A DNA stretch of 58,679 nt, filler included, from Actinomycetota bacterium (GCA_046725875.1; 3 parts of 3 records of this genome joined end to end with filler, not necessarily neighbours in it); one strand, 5' to 3'; shown: positions 3,001 through 9,000, counted from the whole stretch's first letter. Made by a program: the numbers.

Positions 3001-6000
3001 GGTCAGCGCGGTCGGCTGAGCGGACGGCTCGCCGGGACTGCCGTACGGTAGAAGGGAGGCGATGACGCCGTCCTGTTGTGGCCGCTCCGGCCAGACTCAC
3101 TGGAGGTAGCAGCGTGGGCCGTGCCGCCATGCTCACCGTCGATGACGATCCGGCCGTCTCGCGTGCCGTGGCCCGGGATCTGCGCCGCCGCTACGGGCAG
3201 AACTATCAGATAGTTAGGGCCTCTTCGGGCGCCGACGGGCTGGACGCGCTCCGTGAGCTCAAGCTCCGGGGCGGCCGGGTGGCGGTCCTTCTTGCCGACT
3301 ATCGGATGCCCCAGATGAACGGCGTCGAATTCCTCGAACAGGCGATGGACCTGTTCCCGAACGCACGCCGGGCGCTGATGACGGCCTACGCCGACACGGA
3401 AGCTGCGATCCAGGCCATCAACGTCGTCGATGTGGACCACTATCTGCTGAAGCCTTGGGATCCACCGGAGGAGAAGTTCTATCCAGTGGTGGATGCGCTG
3501 CTGGAAGCCTGGAAGGCCGCCGGCGACCGTGAGGTGGAGGAAGTCAAGGTCGTCGGCCACCGCTGGAACTCAGCGTCCTACCGGATCCGCGACTTCCTGG
3601 CTCGGAACCTTGTTCCGTACCGGTGGTTCAGCGCCGACGAGCCGGAGGGTCGGCGGTTGCTCGATGCCGCCGGGGCCGGTCTGGAGGCGGTCCCCCTGGT
3701 GGTTACGGCGGACGGGCGGCCGCTCCCCGCACCCTCGGCGGCCGAGGTGGCCGCCGCCGTCGGCTTGTCAACGGAACCGGTACGGGACTTCTACGACCTG
3801 ATCATCGTTGGCGGAGGTCCGGCCGGCCTGGGTGCGGCGGTCTACGGTGCATCGGAGGGCCTGCACACGGTTCTCGTCGAACGGAAGGCGATCGGGGGCC
3901 AGGCCGGTCAAAGCTCCAGAATCGAGAACTACCTCGGCTTTCCCGACGGCGTGTCCGGCGCACAGCTCACCGAGCGGGCCCGCCGCCAGGCGGCGAAGTT
4001 CGACGCGGAGGTGCTCACCGCCAGAGATGTGGGGAGCTTGTCGGCGCGTGGTGGGGCGCGCGTGGTCAGTTTTGGCGACGGCACCGAAATCTCAGCACAC
4101 GCCGTGATCATCGCCACTGGAGTCTCGTATCGACCATTGCTTGCGCCGGGAGTGGCCAAGCTGACAGGTCGCGGCGTCTACTACGGCTCGGCGCCGACCG
4201 AAGCTACCGAGTGCCAGGGCACCGACGTCTTCATCGTGGGCGGCGCTAACTCCGCTGGTCAGTCGGCGCTCTTCTTCTGTCGTTACGCACGCAAGGTGAC
4301 GCTTCTGGTCCGCGGTGACTCGCTTGAACGGTCGATGTCCTATTACCTGATCCAGCAGCTCGCCTCGATCGACAACATCGAGGTCCGGACCGGCACCGAG
4401 GTGACGGAGGTGCACGGCGAGGACCACCTGGAGGCGGTCACGTTTTTCGACAGCAAGCGGGCGACGACCATCACGCTGCCCGCCGAGCATCTGTTCGTGC
4501 TCATCGGAGCCGAGCCGCACACCGAGTGGCTAGACGGCGCGGTTTCGCGTGACTCGCGCGGCTTCATCTACACGGGGCCGGACCTGATGACCGGCGGGAC
4601 CCGCCCGACTGGATGGGATCGCGACCGCGACCCGTATTACCTCGAGTGCAGCGCCCCGGGCATCTTCGCCGCCGGCGACGTGCGGGCCAACTCGGTCAAA
4701 CGGATTGCGTCGGCCATCGGCGAGGGCGCGATGGCGGTGACGCTGGTGCACACGTACCTGGAGACCCAATGACCAGGAAGGCCACCACGGAGGAGCTGAG
4801 GACGCTCTTCCTCTTCGAGGCACTAACCGATGATCAGCTTGCCTGGCTGGCCGAGCGGGGCACGGTAAGGGACTACCCGGCGGGCAGCACGGTGATTGCC
4901 GAGGGCGACCCGGCCGAATCCTTCTTCGTCCTGCTTTCGGGCACGCTGGCGCTGTCCCGCCGGGTGCAGCAGGACGACATCGAGACCGTGCGCACGGACC
5001 AACGCGGGGTCTACATGGGTGCGACGCAGGCTTACCTGCGTGACGACCCGGCGGTGGCGCGCACCTACCTTGCCTCGATGCGCGCGATCAGCGACTGCGA
5101 GTTCTTCATCATGTCCGCCGCGGACTTCGCGACGATGGTCCGTGAGTGGTTTCCGATGGCGACACACCTGCTCGAAGGGCTCTTCTTCGCCATGCGGAAC
5201 AGCCAGGCGCTGGTGAGCGAGCGCCAGCGGCTCGCGGCGCTCGGCTCGCTCACCTCTGGCTTGATGCACGAGCTGAACAACCCCGCGGCCGCTACCGTCC
5301 GGGCCGCGTCGGCGCTGCGGGAGCGGGTCGCCGGGATGCGCCACAAGCTTGCCATGCTCGCCGACGGCCGGATCCCGGCCGAGCAGCTACGGGCATTGAT
5401 ACAGGTGCTGGAGCCGATCATCGAGCGGGCTGCCAAAGCGCCAGATCTGACGCCCGTACAGGCCAGCGATCGGGAGGACGAGCTTGGCGATTGGTTGGAT
5501 AGGCATGCGGTCACCGCCGGCTGGGATCTCGCCCCCGTGTTCGCTGCCGCCGGCCTCGACGTCGATGCTCTGGAAGAGGTCGAGGACGCGGTGGCACCGG
5601 AGTTGCTCAACCGCGCTTTGAGCTGGATGGGCTATGTGCTCGAGACCGAGCAGCTGATAACCGACATCGAGGACGCCGGAAACCGGATCTCGACCCTGGT
5701 CGCCGCCGCGAAGCAGTACTCGCAACTGGACCGGGCCCCGCACCAGTGGGTCGACGTGCACGACGGGCTGAAAAGCACCATCATCATGCTCTCCCACAAG
5801 CTCGGCGACGGCGTCAAGGTGGTCAAAGAGTTCGACAGGACGCTGCCGAAGATTCCCTCCTATCCAGCGGAGCTCAATCAGGTCTGGACTAACCTCGTTG
5901 ACAACGCGGTCCATGCTATGAACGGCGCCGGCACTCTCACGATTCGTACGGCACGGGACGGCGACCGGGTGCTCGTCGACATCGGCGACACCGGACCGGG

Positions 6001-9000
6001 CATTCCGCCTAAGCTGCGACAGCGCGTCTTCGAGCCGTTCTTCACCACAAAACCCGTGGGGGAAGGTACCGGGTTGGGACTGGACATCGCATACCGCATT
6101 GTCGTAAACCGGCACGGCGGCGACATCAGCGTTACGTCCCAGCCGGGCGACACCCACTTCCAGGTCCGCCTCCCGATCGCGGAGCCCGCATCGGTCTGAC
6201 AGCTTCGGCTCGGCGCGCGGATCACCTGCCTGCCCTCGCGTTGCTGGTTGACGATGCGGCGCGGCTCGGGCTGTGGCTCGCCATGTCGGCGATCGCTCCC
6301 CCGAACCGGTCGGGCCCCTGGACCATGGCCGGCTGGCCGGCCATGGTCGTCCCGGTTGGCGATCACGCGACCTCCTTGCCGGGGTCGTACCCACCGAATC
6401 GCCCGGTCTCCGCTTCGTTGATCGCCGAGTTGTCAGCGTAATCTGCAAGATCGCCAAGCTGTCAGAGCCTCGCGTCGCTATAGCGACCGGAGCATCTGAC
6501 AGATTCGCCGCCCAGCCCGGCCGGGAGGTATTTGTCAGAACATCTGCCGCGTGAAAACGACCTGCGCGTCTGACACCTGCCAAGTCACCAGCGGACAAGT
6601 TCCACGATCTTGCTCGAACCGCTGACAACTCGCTGGGACGCGGTGCCCAGTACCTCGGGAGTACGCTCGCGATTCGATGGCTGGATCGGTGCTGCGGATC
6701 GGGGTGTTGACACCGCATGTGGCGCCAGGCCCCGAGACCGAGTTCCCCGCGATGGCGCCCGGTCTGATCACGACACGGGTCGCCCGTGTTGCGACCGAGG
6801 CCGCGGGCGTCCGGATCGGAACGAGCCCACCTGCACCGGCCGACGCCCGAGCGCTGACCGAGCCAGCCTTTCTGGACGATGCGGCCGAGACGTTCGCCGC
6901 GGGGCCGATCGATGTGATCGGCTACGCGTCCACCAGCTCGGCCTATGCCCTCGGCTTCGACGACGAGGCCCGCATGGTCGCGCGGCTGGCGGAGCGGACC
7001 GGCGTACCTGTCGCGTCGACGTGCGCAGCGGCGGTGCTGGCCTTGCGAGTCCTCGGGGCCGGACGGATCGCGCTGGTCGAACCGCCGTGGTTCGACGACC
7101 AACTGAACGCGCTGGGTGCGGCCTACTTTCGAAGCCAGGGATTTGCTGTCGTCTCGTCGGGGTCTGCCGGCCTGCCGCTGGATCCACGACGGATCGAGCC
7201 GACCGCTGTGTACGAGTGGACATCGCAGCATGTAGCAGGCGACGCGGAAGCGGTATTCATCGGCGGGAACGGGTTTCGAGCCGCGGCAGCAATCGAAGCG
7301 CTGGAGGCGAGCCTCGAGCGACCGGTCTTGACGTCGAATCAGGTGCTGTTGTGGCATCTCCTCGGACTCGGGGACGCCACCTTCGCGGTCAAGGGCTACG
7401 GACGGCTGTTCACCCACAAACCGCTCGCTGGGTGACCGTCTCGTCGCTGCCTCAGTCAGTCAGCGGGGCCGGCTCGGCCGTGGCCGCGCAGATGCTGAGC
7501 ACCGGCGGGCTCTCCCGGATCGCCCGGATCGCACAGCCGGCGGCGGTGAACGGGGCCGCAGGCATCGTGGTGGCGCCGGCGGGACGGCTGTGAGCCGTGA
7601 TCGGTTTCACCGCCAGGCGCAGCAAGATCGTCGAAATCGACATCCTGGCCGACCCAGCACACCTGCGCCATGTCGACTTGGCCGTCCTAACCGGCTAAAC
7701 CGGACCGCCGGGCGGCGCCTCGTAAATGGCCCGGAAAAGCAGGCCGCAATTGGCCCGTGCGCGCAGGCCACTCTGGCCCTCAGGATCGTGGCATGAGCAC
7801 TCCGCTGCAGTCGACACCCCGGACCACCTTGCGCCGTTCCAAGGAGCGCGGCGGCCACGACCGCCACGCCCTGTACGACGTGCTGCGCGAGGGCATGTTC
7901 TGCCACGCCGGCGTGGTCGTGGACGGTTTGCCGGTCGTACTGCCCATGGCGTACGGGTACGACCTCACCGAGCCGGACGGGACGCTCTATCTGCACGGGT
8001 CGATCGCCGGGCGGCTGCTGACCGCCGCGCTGGAGCAGACCCTCTGCGTCACGGTTACGCACGCCGACGGGCTGGTGCTGGCGCGGTCCGCGTTCCACCA
8101 CTCGGTGAATTACCGCTCCGCGGTGATCTTCGGCCGGCCCCGGCTCATCACCGGCACCCAGGACAAGGTCGCCGCGTTGAACCTAATCCTGGACCACCTG
8201 GTGCCTGGCCGGTCCGAGGTTACCCGGCCCCCGAACCGCAAGGAACTGGCCAAGACCGCGGTTCTGGCGCTTCCGATGACCGAGGCCTCGGTGAAGATGC
8301 GCACCGGCGAGGCGATTGACGAACCCGAAGACCTGCACCACCCGGTCTGGGCCGGTGTCATCCCGCTGCGTGTCGTGGCTTCCGATCCGATCACCAACTC
8401 GGACTCCACGGTCGGGGTTCCGCGCCACGTGGCCGCCCGGGTCACTGCCCTCTCGGCGTACGCTTCCTGACCTTGCCCGCTGAGCCGTATACATCGCTCC
8501 CGAACCGTGGGTCAGGGTGCCAGCAGGGTGCGGACCTGCCCGGGCGTTCGACCGAGCTCGCGCCGGACAGTGCGGGTCAGGTGCGCTTGGTCGGCAAACC
8601 CGGTCTCCGCGGCCAGCTCGGCGAGATCCCGCTGACCGTCTGCGAGTCGCTCCAGTGCACGGCGTACCTTGAGCCGGTTGCGCAGCTCGCTGATGGTAAC
8701 TCCGCTGCCTCGGCGGAAGAGCCGGCTCACATGGTACGGCGACAGTCGGGTGACTCGGGCCAGGTCGGCGAGCCGAAGATCGGGATCCGCGGCCATCGCC
8801 TGCCGGACCTGATCCACCACGCGTCCGGCCCGCCGCTGCGTGGGGAATCCCGAGGCAACCGCGCCCGGCAAGATGTCACTCAGGACGGTTCCGATCAGCA
8901 ATTGGGAACGCTCGGCCAGTTCTTCGGTATCGGCGCCCGCCTGCGCCCGGGCGAGCAGCGCACGATGCCCTAGGTCCACCGAGGGGCTCGTGAAGATCGG

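What a model noticed while it worked through the whole genome (the two positions that open the first line are those of the whole stretch)
3114..6199. Two-component pair with an enzyme output: cNMP-binding histidine kinase + receiver fused to a CxxC-less thioredoxin-redu [...]
g03140 (552 aa) is a response-regulator receiver joined by a ~110-aa linker to a TrxR-fold FAD/NAD(P)H domain that has no CxxC redox centre, and the overlapping next gene g03141 is a soluble histidine kinase whose sensor is a cyclic-nucleotide-binding domain. Boldest reading: cAMP (or cGMP) is read by the kinase and phosphorylation switches a ferredoxin/flavodoxin-NADP-reductase-like enzyme, a direct second-messenger-to-redox switch; the database name 'thioredoxin-disulfide reductase' is wrong. 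New: an unstudied, very strongly conserved enzyme-output two-component system of Actinomycetes.
Evidence so far: pfam.tsv: g03140 Response_reg 7-118, Pyr_redox_2 227-538; g03141 cNMP_binding 34-125, HATPase_c 367-471; the genes overlap by 4 nt. NCBIfam TRX_reduct 213.6 bits, under its cut of 343. No CxxC anywhere in g03140 and in 0 of 120 listed relatives (75-88% identical, all REC + Pyr_redox_2; labelled 'fused response regulator/thioredoxin-disulfide reductase' or 'thioredoxin reductase (NADPH)'). A kinase homologue (E<=1e-60) is in 58 of 201 sampled Actinomycetes genomes, 30 of 124 genera; in 9 of 9 fetched loci the REC-flavoprotein gene lies directly upstream of it. No paper in the library holds all of: response regulator, thioredoxin reductase, fused, receiver domain, cAMP, histidine kinase.
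(Added by a program. Inside this text positions count along the whole contig: they may not be those of the stretch shown here. "Call 12" and the like, gene names such as g00115 and contig names such as C1 are that model's own, and its searches are not shown. The text may have been shortened before it was handed on; [...] marks where a part breaks off. The agent that wrote the report below was given it as the finding of a first reader that could run no searches.)

Follow-up and report, generated by a model that had tools for sequence, protein, structure and literature searches.

The report
Kinase-controlled flavoenzyme lacking its redox cysteines
A two-gene bacterial signalling pair whose output is not a DNA-binding protein but a thioredoxin-reductase-like flavoprotein that has lost its catalytic cysteines, which points to an unstudied route from a sensed signal to cellular redox chemistry.

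Summary
FAD and NAD(P)H motifs are intact, but C-x-x-C-D is replaced by a conserved G-[AS]-x-x-[ST]-E loop. The overlapping gene 4769-6199 is a soluble histidine kinase with a cNMP-binding-fold (CNB) sensor.

The pair is adjacent in 30 of 30 Actinomycetes loci and 75 of 77 loci from other phyla, so it is not Actinomycetes-specific.

The same flavoprotein module occurs fused directly to CNB domains or to degenerate receivers. A paralogue in this genome overlaps a membrane class III cyclase gene by 4 nt.

cAMP or cGMP as the kinase's ligand is not supported at residue level. The cassette Glu is Ala in 29 of 29 orthologues and the Arg is kept in 4 of 29.

The REC-TrxR architecture is already catalogued (Galperin 2018). 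A probable CNB-fused relative (ATII-TrxR, 2019) was purified: it binds FAD, uses NADPH and NADH, reduces DTNB and reportedly thioredoxin. "Wrong name" is therefore contested, and membership of the ferredoxin-NADP reductase family is not shown.

Verdict: a real, widespread, unstudied enzyme-output two-component system of unknown substrate and ligand; a new variant of a known kind.

The parts
3102..3106 (+). Shine-Dalgarno-like GGAGG, 7 nt before the GTG start of the RR-flavoprotein gene
   Evidence: Read directly from the sequence.
3114..4772 (+). Gene for the response regulator-flavoprotein (552 aa): receiver, Cys-less glutaredoxin-fold domain, CxxC-less TrxR-fold flavoprotein
   Evidence: Translation; Pfam and NCBIfam; AlphaFold2 model with mean pLDDT 89.4.
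3132..3467 (+). Receiver (REC) domain, residues 7-118; D10, D11, D62 (phospho-acceptor), T90, K113 all present
   Evidence: Pfam Response_reg, 52.3 bits. The five residues are kept in 30 of 30 close relatives aligned.
3543..3758 (+).
   Evidence: The model shows beta-alpha-beta-alpha-beta-beta-alpha. VIA-align gives Z 11.4, rmsd 1.8 A over 74 residues to 3zij, then cGrx1 at 10.7 and NrdH at 10.3. Foldseek's best-ranked rows are mycoredoxin-1, a VKOR thioredoxin-like domain and the thioredoxin-like protein BC3987.
3792..4769 (+). Low-Mr TrxR-fold FAD/NAD(P)H domain, residues 227-552
   Evidence: Pyr_redox_2 227-538. PDB phmmer best hit 4zn0, E 4.4e-42. Foldseek TMt 0.94, rmsd 2.1 A to 5mh4. GxGxxG, GGQ, GGxNSAG and GD motifs are invariant or nearly so.
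4173..4205 (+). Loop G354-V-Y-Y-G-S-A-P-T-E-A364 that replaces TrxR's GVSxC-AxCDG. By the HMMER alignment Cys1 becomes Gly, Cys2 becomes Thr and the acid Asp becomes Glu.
   Evidence: Alignment to 4zn0. In the 150 representatives Y357 is kept in 142, G358 in 120 and E363 in 127.
4769..6199 (+). Gene for a soluble histidine kinase (476 aa) with an N-terminal CNB-fold sensor
   Evidence: Translation; Pfam; no hydrophobic segment; ATGA overlap with the upstream gene.
4868..5143 (+). cNMP-binding-fold (CNB) domain, residues 34-125, with a non-canonical phosphate-binding cassette (G-A-T-Q-A-Y-L...A-R-T-Y)
   Evidence: Pfam cNMP_binding 45.0 bits against 27.5; alignment to PKG CNB domains; orthologue alignment.
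5240..5302 (+). H-box of the dimerisation/phosphotransfer helix, with the predicted phospho-accepting His167 (codon 5267-5269) in H-E-L-N-N-P
   Evidence: H167, E168, N170, N171 and P172 are invariant in 35 aligned kinases from several phyla.
5867..6181 (+). HATPase_c catalytic domain, residues 367-471, with N, G1, F and G2 boxes
   Evidence: Pfam 92 bits; invariant columns N375, N379, D407, G409, G411, F421 and G433-G437.

Best explanation
This is a two-gene, cytoplasmic two-component system whose output is a flavoenzyme.

Proposed mechanism:
1. The kinase senses a still unknown ligand or partner through a CNB-fold domain (inferred).
2. It autophosphorylates on His167 and passes the phosphate to Asp62 of the receiver (inferred from intact motifs and strict gene pairing).
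3. The phosphorylated receiver, acting through a redox-dead glutaredoxin-fold domain, changes the activity or the contacts of a dimeric TrxR-fold FAD/NAD(P)H domain (inferred).
4. That domain can still take hydride from NAD(P)H to FAD, but it has no dithiol. Electrons must therefore leave the flavin directly to some acceptor (O2, quinone, metal, iron-sulphur protein or an external disulfide), not by the TrxR Cys-Cys relay.

The glutaredoxin-like plus TrxR-like unit is a reusable effector that evolution has placed under receivers, degenerate receivers or CNB domains, and it recurs next to nucleotide cyclases.

What is shown: the anatomy, its conservation, the fusions and the synteny. What is inferred: phosphotransfer, the regulation of the enzyme, and the substrate.
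For: Intact signalling parts.
- Receiver residues D10, D11, D62, T90 and K113 are present in the window protein and in 30 of 30 close relatives aligned.
- The kinase H-box (H167) and ATP-binding boxes are invariant in 35 sequences.
- Neither protein has a membrane segment.

Pairing.
- The genes overlap by 4 nt.
- The two genes are adjacent on the same strand in 30 of 30 loci of the class.
- They are adjacent in 75 of 77 loci from Acidobacteriota, Bacteroidota, Verrucomicrobiia, a cyanobacterium and Solirubrobacteraceae. The two loci without a match end 127 and 438 nt after the RR gene.
- No other conserved neighbour was found in 21 loci of about 15 kb.

The flavoprotein still looks cofactor-competent.
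- The FAD and NAD(P)H glycine motifs and the GD motif are invariant or nearly invariant.
- The model fits TrxRs in the flavin-reducing conformation: 5mh4 with TMt 0.94 and rmsd 2.1 A, then 3cty and 3r9u.

The dithiol is lost.
- 0 of 120 close relatives have a CxxC, and 0 of 150 representatives have one at the TrxR site.
- The only column with Cys in at least 20 of the 150 representatives is position 367, with 51.
- The replacement loop is itself conserved.

The module behaves as a regulated effector.
- Of the 150 representatives, 80 carry a REC-like N-terminus, 36 a CNB domain, 31 are short or cut and 3 are other. Further variants carry SnoaL_2 or EF-hand domains.
- A 43%-identical paralogue with a degenerate receiver overlaps a 6-TM class III cyclase gene by 4 nt in the same genome.
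- That arrangement recurs in 12 loci. Other relatives sit next to a cyclase-NB-ARC gene or a CNB-patatin gene.

Experimental support from a probable relative. A CNB-fused protein that is very probably a family member binds FAD and oxidises NADPH and NADH (PMC6544261, Results read; link to the family).
Against: - There is no assay of this protein or of any REC-type member.
- The acceptor is unknown.
- The kinase's CNB domain lacks the canonical cNMP contacts, so the input is unknown.
- Only 4 of 63 diverged REC-type representatives keep all five receiver residues, and D62 is kept in 26 of 63 (the alignment of diverged N-termini may be imperfect). Phosphorylation therefore cannot be the general control of the family.
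- The ATII-TrxR paper reports thioredoxin reduction. If that is correct and general, the output would be ordinary disulfide reduction by an unexplained route.
- NAD(P)H specificity is unclear: the HRRxxxR motif reads V-R-G-D-S-L-E-R.
- A flavoprotein that acts as a sensor rather than as an enzyme is not excluded.
Confidence: 0.6

Rival explanations
1. One reading: cAMP or cGMP binds the kinase's CNB domain, and phosphorylation switches a ferredoxin/flavodoxin-NADP-reductase-like enzyme. This would be a direct switch from second messenger to redox.
For: - Pfam cNMP_binding scores above its gathering cut-off.
- The family is tied to cNMP genes. 36 of 150 representatives are CNB fusions. One representative (P0124) joins REC, flavoprotein and a CNB domain with a canonical G-E...P-R-T-A cassette. 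Cyclase genes follow the paralogue type in 12 loci.
- 10 of the 12 genomes with a cyclase-linked paralogue also hold the kinase, against 96 of 301 overall. These genomes are close kin, so this is only suggestive.
- Like TrxR-type FNRs, the domain has no CxxC.
Against: - In the cassette the ribose-binding Glu is Ala in 29 of 29 Actinomycetes orthologues. The phosphate-binding Arg column holds Arg in 4, Gln in 21 and other residues in 4.
- Acidobacterial orthologues carry a different conserved motif, G-Q-V-T-G-[ML]-L-P-[FY]-S-R-[LM]-T.
- Most CNB-fused relatives also lack the Arg.
- By sequence the flavoprotein sits with TrxRs (E 4e-42), not with TrxR-type FNRs (best E 2.9e-15), and the FNR matches stop at about residue 465.
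Confidence: 0.15
2. The database name is essentially right. The protein is a receiver-regulated thioredoxin (or other disulfide) reductase that works without the CxxC, using other cysteines or the substrate's own thiols.
For: - ATII-TrxR (552 aa, CNB 13-146, TrxB 234-522) is reported to reduce DTNB (kcat 5.6 per s) and a thioredoxin in an insulin assay (Km 1.03 uM). The authors propose Cys206-Cys223 and Cys376-Cys467 as redox centres (PMC6544261, Results read).
- Cupriavidus relatives of that type carry this family's signature loop, and their cysteines have the spacings 17 and 153 that match the paper's 206, 223 and 376.
- The paper's Cys376 corresponds to C367 of the window protein, which is kept in 120 of 120 close relatives.
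- The N-terminal neighbour domain has a glutaredoxin fold.
Against: - No cysteine pair is conserved in the family. C367 is present in only 51 of 150 representatives, and no other column reaches 20 of 150.
- The window protein has three cysteines and none in the glutaredoxin-like domain.
- From general knowledge, DTNB reduction is a common side activity of flavoproteins.
- I could not see the ATII-TrxR sequence itself, and the paper ran no Cys mutants.
- The TIGR01292 score is far below its cut-off.
- A canonical TrxB candidate scoring 325.6 bits on a gene cut by a contig end exists elsewhere in the genome.
Confidence: 0.12
3. The flavoprotein is a sensor, not an enzyme. FAD redox state or NAD(P)H/NAD(P)+ binding is read by the TrxR-like domain. 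The receiver then acts as a phosphate sink or a modulator of the kinase, so the pair integrates redox state with the CNB signal and acts through protein contacts.
For: - The catalytic dithiol is lost while the cofactor sites are strictly conserved, as in other enzymes recruited as sensors (general knowledge).
- Most family members have degenerate receivers and so cannot be phospho-switched.
- The paralogue is translationally coupled to a cyclase, an arrangement that would suit a redox input to cNMP synthesis.
Against: - The replacement loop and the acid residue (Glu363, kept in 127 of 150) are conserved, which suggests chemistry at the flavin.
- REC and CNB domains are typically inputs to the domain they are fused to (general knowledge).
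- A relative turns over NAD(P)H with DTNB at several per second (PMC6544261).
Confidence: 0.13

Closest known systems
Low-Mr thioredoxin reductase (TrxB, TIGR01292; e.g. PDB 4zn0, 5mh4, 1tde)
   Same: Same two-domain FAD/NAD(P)H fold. It is the best sequence match (E 4.4e-42) and the best structural match (TMt 0.94, rmsd 2.1 A to 5mh4). The FAD and NADPH glycine motifs are kept.
   Different: No CxxC (Gly and Thr in place of the two Cys, Glu in place of the Asp, and one extra residue). HRRxxxR reads VRGDSLER. There is a family-specific S-M-S-x-Y-L motif and an insert of about 18 residues before the last FAD motif. It scores 213.6 against a cut-off of 343.45. It carries receiver and glutaredoxin-like domains.
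ATII-TrxR, the 'Crp-domain thioredoxin reductase' from a Red Sea brine metagenome (Badiea et al. 2019, PMC6544261), and NCBI's 'cyclic nucleotide-binding domain-containing thioredoxin-disulfide reductase'
   Same: Very probably the same glutaredoxin-like plus CxxC-less TrxR-like module, with the same length (552 aa). Cupriavidus relatives carry the signature GVYYWASPVEA, and 19 of 20 loci have no CxxC. It is the only family member I found with biochemistry: FAD bound, NADPH and NADH used, DTNB reduced. The NCBI name was seen on plasmid records.
   Different: Its N-terminus is a CNB domain, not a receiver, and no partner kinase is involved. No cNMP effect was tested in the paper (Results read; passages of other sections only). 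I could not see its sequence, so membership rests on architecture, the 87% identity to a Cupriavidus protein stated in the paper, and matching cysteine spacings.
[quoted passage not shown]
   Same: The same domain combination, listed among response regulators with enzymatic outputs (passages and a supplement row read).
   Different: The census only lists the architecture. It does not mention the missing CxxC, the glutaredoxin-like domain or the CNB kinase partner, and gives no function. The 2006 and 2010 censuses were not held in the library.
AhpF (alkyl hydroperoxide reductase subunit F; PDB 4xvg, 1hyu)
   Same: Thioredoxin-fold domain(s) N-terminal to a TrxR-like flavoprotein. It ranks highest in Foldseek by E-value (2.6e-31) for the whole model.
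   Different: AhpF has two thioredoxin folds and two redox-active CxxC centres and reduces AhpC (general knowledge). Here there is one glutaredoxin-like fold and no CxxC in either domain. TIGR03140 scores 168 against a cut-off of 502.9.
TrxR-type ferredoxin-NADP+ reductases (e.g. PDB 3lzw, 3ab1, 6gas)
   Same: TrxR fold without the CxxC.
   Different: Much weaker sequence match (E 2.9e-15 to 6.6e-14), covering only residues of about 225-465. No evidence here for their C-terminal flavin-stacking extension (a feature recalled from general knowledge, not tested).
Enzyme-output response regulators (CheB, PleD/WspR, RpfG) and cAMP-regulated enzymes such as the mycobacterial CNB-acetyltransferase (all recalled from general knowledge)
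   Same: The same logic: a receiver or CNB domain allosterically gates a fused enzyme. The receiver here is most like RpfG/HD-GYP- and NtrC-type receivers (2rjn, E 1.2e-15; NosR family, 99 bits).
   Different: The output is a pyridine-nucleotide flavoprotein, for which no regulated example is described in the papers I could search.

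Membership tests
Low-Mr thioredoxin reductase (TrxB, TIGR01292) | Two-domain FAD/NAD(P)H fold with GxGxxG and GGGxxA-type motifs | tested here: met
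   Pyr_redox_2 227-538. G233, G235, G238 and G376/N379/S380/A381/G382 are invariant or nearly so. Foldseek TMt 0.94 to 5mh4.
Low-Mr thioredoxin reductase (TrxB, TIGR01292) | Redox-active CxxC (with the adjacent acid) on the NADPH domain | tested here: not met
   The aligned loop is Y-G-S-A-P-T-E. There is no CxxC in the protein, in 0 of 120 close relatives, or at this site in 0 of 150 representatives.
Low-Mr thioredoxin reductase (TrxB, TIGR01292) | Score at or above NCBIfam's curated equivalog cut-off | tested here: not met
   213.6 bits against 343.45.
Low-Mr thioredoxin reductase (TrxB, TIGR01292) | HRRxxxR motif for the 2'-phosphate of NADPH (motif recalled from general knowledge) | tested here: not met
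   It reads V-R-G-D-S-L-E-R. Only R400 is conserved, in 62 of 63 diverged relatives.
TrxR-type ferredoxin-NADP+ reductase | TrxR fold lacking the CxxC | tested here: met
TrxR-type ferredoxin-NADP+ reductase | Closest sequence relatives are FNRs of this type | tested here: not met
   FNR chains score E 2.9e-15 to 6.6e-14, against 4.4e-42 for TrxRs.
TrxR-type ferredoxin-NADP+ reductase | C-terminal extension that stacks an aromatic residue on the flavin (recalled) | not tested
   The protein ends within about 10 residues of the TrxR C-terminus in the alignments. I had no model coordinates to inspect.
Response regulator receiver (PF00072) | Acidic pocket D/D, phospho-acceptor Asp, conserved Thr/Ser and Lys | tested here: met
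   D10, D11, D62, T90 and K113 are present here and in 30 of 30 close relatives. Pfam 52.3 bits against 30.2.
Response regulator receiver (PF00072) | Cognate histidine kinase | tested here: met
   4-nt overlap. Adjacent in 30 of 30 and 75 of 77 loci. Phosphotransfer itself is not testable here.
Histidine kinase (HisKA-type DHp plus HATPase_c) | H-box histidine and N, G1, F, G2 boxes | tested here: met
   H167-E-L-N-N-P and the ATP-binding boxes are invariant in 35 sequences. HATPase_c scores 92 bits. Pfam HisKA itself gave no hit at E<=0.01.
Canonical cNMP-binding domain (CAP/PKA/PKG type) | Beta-barrel CNB fold recognised by PF00027 | tested here: met
   45.0 bits against 27.5. PKG CNB domains match at E 1.3e-15.
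Canonical cNMP-binding domain (CAP/PKA/PKG type) | Phosphate-binding cassette Glu (ribose 2'-OH contact) | tested here: not met
   G-A in place of G-E in 29 of 29 orthologues.
Canonical cNMP-binding domain (CAP/PKA/PKG type) | Phosphate-binding cassette Arg-[Ser/Thr]-Ala | tested here: inconclusive
   HMMER aligns P-A-V-A to P-R-T-A, but an A-R-T follows three residues later in the window protein. That column holds Arg in 4, Gln in 21 and other residues in 4 of 29. Ligand binding is not testable here.
Glutaredoxin / NrdH-redoxin | Thioredoxin fold of the glutaredoxin size class | tested here: met
   Z 11.4, 10.7 and 10.3 to 3zij, 7c10 and 1h75. Foldseek's best-ranked rows are mycoredoxin-1, a VKOR thioredoxin-like domain and BC3987.
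Glutaredoxin / NrdH-redoxin | CxxC or CxxS active site at the start of helix 1 | tested here: not met
   The site reads G-H-R-W-N-S-A-S (family consensus R-W-S-x-x-S), and the domain has no cysteine.
AhpF | Tandem thioredoxin folds with CxxC plus a TrxR-like domain with CxxC; score over the cut-off | tested here: not met
   One glutaredoxin-like fold, no CxxC; TIGR03140 scores 168 against 502.9.

The most novel reading that the evidence does not exclude
The glutaredoxin-like plus TrxR-like unit is a 'retired' disulfide-reductase relay that bacteria have turned into a general redox effector of second-messenger and phospho-signalling.

In this genome it would form one circuit. A pseudo-receiver flavoprotein tunes a membrane cyclase. 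The cyclase's product, or another small ligand, is read by the non-canonical CNB domain of the kinase. The kinase then switches a second flavoprotein that makes or consumes a diffusible redox signal (for example H2O2, or the NADPH pool).

That would be a new class of signalling output, found across at least five phyla.
Probability: 0.12. Interest if true: 0.85.

Novelty: new variant of a known kind. Interest (0 to 1): 0.6.

Why it matters
Almost all studied two-component systems end in transcription, chemotaxis or c-di-GMP turnover. A conserved, soluble pair that ends in an NAD(P)H flavoenzyme would connect signal perception directly to redox metabolism.

The family is widespread:
- the kinase is in 96 of 301 sampled genomes of the class;
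- the pair also occurs in other phyla;
- sister forms are fused to CNB domains or sit beside cyclases.

Its members are annotated as "thioredoxin reductase" although they lack the defining dithiol. That can mislead counts of thiol-redox capacity in Streptomyces-, Mycobacteriales- and Acidobacteria-type genomes.

The hypothesis is directly testable with two soluble proteins. The loss of cysteines from both the glutaredoxin-like and the TrxR-like domain is also a clean case of an enzyme relay being repurposed.

Tried and rejected
- Complex prediction. Kinase residues 140-476 with receiver residues 1-125, both as alignments, gave no verdict (score 0.21, mark 0.32; controls not run). I draw nothing from it.
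- Conserved neighbours. 21 loci of about 15 kb share only the two genes and their shadow ORFs. A UBP-type zinc-finger ORF is nearby in 8 of 21, but at varying places.
- In-frame fusion of the two genes, suggested by open frames of about 1,000-1,400 aa, is rejected. The flavoprotein and kinase matches lie in different frames in the loci checked.
- Regulatory RNA or signals. Rfam finds only a tRNA at 1775-1861. The scan found no sigma-70-like promoter and no more terminator-like sites than chance.
- Literature searches that found nothing on this system:
  - 'REC-TrxB';
  - 'cyclic nucleotide-binding' with 'thioredoxin reductase-like';
  - five terms including adenylate cyclase and Mycobacterium;
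  - four terms including histidine kinase;
  - 'thioredoxin reductase-like' with response regulator and Streptomyces (reference-list hits only);
  - 'receiver modulated FAD-dependent'.
- Papers not held: Galperin 2006 and 2010, and the Hammerstad and Hersleth 2021 review. They may bear on prior listing of the architecture and of CxxC-less TrxR-fold groups.
- A maximum-likelihood tree did not finish in time. The FastTree version has a weak backbone (67 of 140 inner branches under 80), so I use it only for the well-supported clades.
- L103, the cyanobacterial locus, was dropped from kinase alignment A3 because the chosen coordinates held a stop codon.

Full report
**1. The observation**

The two genes are as described.

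- Window 3114-4772 (+) starts at a GTG 7 nt after a GGAGG and gives 552 aa. An ATG at 3129 would give the 547-aa form seen in many relatives.
- Window 4769-6199 (+) gives 476 aa. Its ATG lies in the ATGA that ends the first gene.
- Pfam finds Response_reg 7-118 and Pyr_redox_2 227-538 in the first protein, and cNMP_binding 34-125 and HATPase_c 367-471 in the second.
- TIGR01292 (thioredoxin-disulfide reductase) scores 213.6 bits against a cut-off of 343.45.
- Neither protein has a hydrophobic segment.

The window is a join of several contigs of a 3.76-Mb, 197-contig genome that is 89% complete. The finding lies on contig C159.

**2. The flavoprotein domain**

Against the Protein Data Bank the best sequence matches are genuine low-Mr TrxRs: 4zn0 at E 4.4e-42, then 7jyp and 4gcm. 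TrxR-type ferredoxin-NADP reductases score only E 2.9e-15 to 6.6e-14, and only over residues of about 225-465.

In the alignment TrxR's G-V-S-Y-C-(gap)-A-I-C-D-G faces G354-V-Y-Y-G-S-A-P-T-E-A364. So Cys1 becomes Gly, Cys2 becomes Thr, the catalytic Asp becomes Glu, and there is one extra residue. H-R-R-D becomes V-R-G-D.

The cysteine evidence is consistent:

- None of the 120 listed close relatives (73-87% identical over residues 120-552) has any CxxC. 116 of them carry PF00072; the other 4 are 426-488 aa long.
- In the 150 best representatives of 50%-identity clusters (40-78% identical) none has a CxxC at this site; 6 have one elsewhere.
- The replacement loop is itself conserved in those 150: Y357 in 142, G358 in 120, Ser/Thr362 in 92, E363 in 127, A364 in 128.
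- The only alignment column with Cys in 20 or more of the 150 is position 367. It holds Cys in 51 of 150 and in 120 of 120 close relatives. No dithiol can therefore be general to the family.

The cofactor motifs are invariant or nearly so in 94 aligned sequences: G233, G235, G238, G261-G262-Q263, G376/N379/S380/A381/G382, R400 and G521-D522. So is a family-specific S-M-S-x-Y-L motif.

An AlphaFold2 model (mean pLDDT 89.4, pTM 0.78) superposes best on TrxRs in the flavin-reducing conformation. These are 5mh4 (TMt 0.94, rmsd 2.1 A), 3cty and 3r9u. AhpF ranks first by E-value.

The genome also holds a much better TrxB candidate, scoring 325.6 bits on a gene cut by a contig end at C47.

**3. The 'linker' is a domain**

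In the model, residues 144-215 form beta-alpha-beta-alpha-beta-beta-alpha. Folded alone (pLDDT 90.4), the domain matches the following:

- By VIA-align: the thioredoxin-like protein BC3987 (Z 11.4, rmsd 1.8 A, 74 residues), cGrx1 (Z 10.7) and NrdH-redoxin (Z 10.3).
- By Foldseek: mycoredoxin-1 ranks first, followed mostly by thioredoxin-, glutaredoxin- and GST-fold entries, at weak E-values of about 0.01.

Where these proteins carry CxxC, the window protein reads G-H-R-W-N-S-A-S (family consensus R-W-S-x-x-S). The domain has no cysteine.

The protein therefore looks like a glutaredoxin-TrxR relay in which both redox centres have been lost.

**4. Receiver and kinase**

The receiver keeps D10, D11, D62, T90 and K113, as do 30 of 30 close relatives aligned.

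In 35 kinases aligned from several phyla, H167-E-L-N-N-P and the N, G1, F and G2 boxes are invariant. Pfam's HisKA model itself gave no hit. About 110 mostly helical residues lie between the H-box helix and the second helix.

**5. The sensor domain**

The CNB fold is clear: 45 bits, and E 1.3e-15 to PKG CNB domains. The phosphate-binding cassette, however, is not canonical.

- PKG's F-G-E-R-A-L-L-Y-D-E-P-R-T-A faces M-G-A-T-Q-A-Y-L-R-D-D-P-A-V-A, followed by R-T-Y.
- In 29 Actinomycetes orthologues the Glu position is Ala in 29. The candidate Arg column holds Arg in 4, Gln in 21 and His, Glu, Ser or Met in 4.
- Orthologues from Acidobacteriota carry a different conserved motif, G-Q-V-T-G-[ML]-L-P-[FY]-S-R-[LM]-T.

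Binding of cAMP or cGMP in the textbook way is therefore doubtful. Binding of something is likely, given the conservation.

**6. Pairing and range**

- A kinase homologue at E<=1e-40 is in 96 of 301 sampled genomes of the class (79 of 236 high-quality ones; 48 of 150 genera).
- In all 30 loci fetched, the window's included, a flavoprotein homologue (59-100% identical) lies directly upstream on the same strand. It is in another frame, so the two are not fused.
- I fetched 77 loci around relatives of representative P0123, a true-receiver form. They come from Bryobacterales and Terriglobia, Bacteroidota, a Verrucomicrobiia MAG, a cyanobacterium and Solirubrobacteraceae.
- 75 of these hold an adjacent same-strand kinase match. 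64 of the matches span residues <=20 to >=460, CNB domain included. In three Bacteroidota loci the kinase lies upstream. The two loci without a match end 127 and 438 nt after the regulator gene.
- Nothing else is conserved around the pair in 21 loci of about 15 kb.

**7. The module in other settings**

My HMM-based sorting of the 150 representatives gives 80 with a REC-like N-terminus, 36 with a CNB domain, 31 short or cut, and 3 other. Pfam confirmed CNB in 16 of 28 that I sent. It also showed SnoaL_2 (2) and EF-hand (1) variants, and one REC-flavoprotein with a C-terminal CNB domain carrying a canonical G-E...P-R-T-A cassette.

Only 4 of 63 diverged REC-type representatives keep all five receiver residues, and D62 is kept in 26. 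Most of these are therefore pseudo-receivers.

In the window's own genome a 582-aa paralogue (43% identical over its full length) lies on contig C99. It has no Pfam receiver hit and no CxxC, and its receiver positions read E-G-D-V-K. It overlaps by 4 nt a gene for a 6-TM class III nucleotide cyclase.

That pairing recurs in 12 loci. Other relatives are followed by a cyclase-NB-ARC gene, a CNB-patatin gene, or unrelated genes. 10 of the 12 genomes with a cyclase-linked paralogue also have the kinase, but they are close kin.

A FastTree of the module has a weak backbone. It puts the cyclase-linked paralogue in a large pseudo-receiver clade (58 rows, support 99). CNB forms fall in two clades (27 and 12 rows, both 99). 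The window protein and the true-receiver forms sit near the 12-row CNB clade, with support of only 80.

**8. What is in print**

- Source names include 'fused response regulator/thioredoxin-disulfide reductase', 'Response regulator receiver modulated FAD-dependent pyridine ...' and 'cyclic nucleotide-binding domain-containing thioredoxin-disulfide reductase'.
- Badiea et al. 2019 (PMC6544261; abstract and Results read, plus passages of other sections) purified ATII-TrxR. It has 552 aa, with CNB at 13-146 and TrxB at 234-522, and is 87% identical to a Cupriavidus metallidurans protein.
- They reported 1.87 FAD per native enzyme; Km 5.2 uM for NADPH and 4.2 uM for NADH; DTNB kcat 5.6 per s; and thioredoxin reduction in an insulin assay. 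They proposed Cys206-Cys223 and Cys376-Cys467 as redox centres. No cNMP was tested.
- I could not see that sequence. Cupriavidus members of the CNB type carry GVYYWASPVEA, lack CxxC in 19 of 20 loci, and have cysteines spaced 17 and 153 apart like the paper's 206, 223 and 376. The last of these equals C367 here.
- The enzyme class has therefore very probably been handled once, under the name TrxR. The missing CxxC is not mentioned in the parts of that paper I read.
- Six further searches found nothing on the REC-type system or its kinase.

**9. Reading**

The best-supported account is a cytoplasmic kinase-receiver pair that gates a cofactor-competent, dithiol-less TrxR-fold flavoenzyme through a dead glutaredoxin-like domain. 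Both the ligand and the acceptor are unknown.

- 'Real thioredoxin reductase' is kept as a rival because of the 2019 assays, although the lack of any conserved cysteine pair argues against it as a family property.
- A sensor role for the flavoprotein is also open.

The kind (an enzyme-output two-component system; a REC-TrxR architecture) is known. The following are, as far as my searches reach, undescribed:

- the conserved CNB-kinase partner;
- the double loss of redox centres;
- the sister CNB and cyclase-linked forms;
- the range across phyla.

Noticed in passing
G000 contig C99 (L003:775-2523 and 2520-3869; not in the window): A paralogue of the flavoprotein (582 aa, 43% identical, degenerate receiver, no CxxC) overlaps by 4 nt a gene for a 6-TM class III adenylate/guanylate cyclase. 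The same pairing is seen in 12 loci of the class.
   Followed up: partly
P0124 (714 aa, metagenomic representative): One relative combines REC, the glutaredoxin-like domain, the flavoprotein and a C-terminal CNB domain with a canonical G-E...P-R-T-A cassette. Others carry N-terminal SnoaL_2 (P0131, P0139) or C-terminal EF-hands (P0213).
   Followed up: partly
window 5270-5760 (kinase residues about 168-330): The kinase has an unusually long, mostly helical insert of about 110 residues between the H-box helix and the second DHp helix. It holds conserved E-D...D-W-L and W-D-L-A-P motifs. Its function is unknown.
   Followed up: no
window 1225-1764 (+) and 1775-1861 (+): A TadA-like cytidine/adenosine deaminase ORF (MafB19-deam, dCMP_cyt_deam_1) is followed directly by an 87-nt tRNA gene (Rfam, 52.8 bits).
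   Followed up: no
window 6677-12030: The downstream genes look unrelated to the pair: an Asp/Glu racemase or arylmalonate-decarboxylase-like ORF (6677-7435), a Pyridox_ox_2 protein (7757-8470), two AraC-type regulators (8512-9324 on the minus strand, 10480-11121 on the plus strand), a YkuD L,D-transpeptidase (9915-11036, minus strand) and an alpha/beta hydrolase (11257-12030).
   Followed up: no
window 5387-7417 (-): A 676-aa open frame antisense to the kinase's 3' half has no Pfam hit, and its relatives exist only as shadows of the kinase gene in other loci. It is most likely a spurious high-GC ORF.
   Followed up: partly
L069:5702-6232 and 7 other loci (L074, L076, L077, L078, L082, L087 and one more): A small ORF with a UBP-type zinc-finger-like Cys/His pattern lies near the pair in 8 of 21 loci, at varying positions. 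It is not present near the window's copy.
   Followed up: partly
G145 contig C2:348876-351758 (genome of the same class): Two kinase homologues (48% and 52% identical to the window's kinase) lie in tandem. Several genomes hold a second, 40-46% identical kinase paralogue, some of them also next to a flavoprotein gene (e.g. L064).
   Followed up: no
whole window: The 58,679-base window is not one contig. Places 18372-44632 are contig C162 and the finding lies on contig C159 of a 197-contig assembly, so features should not be linked across those joins.
   Followed up: no
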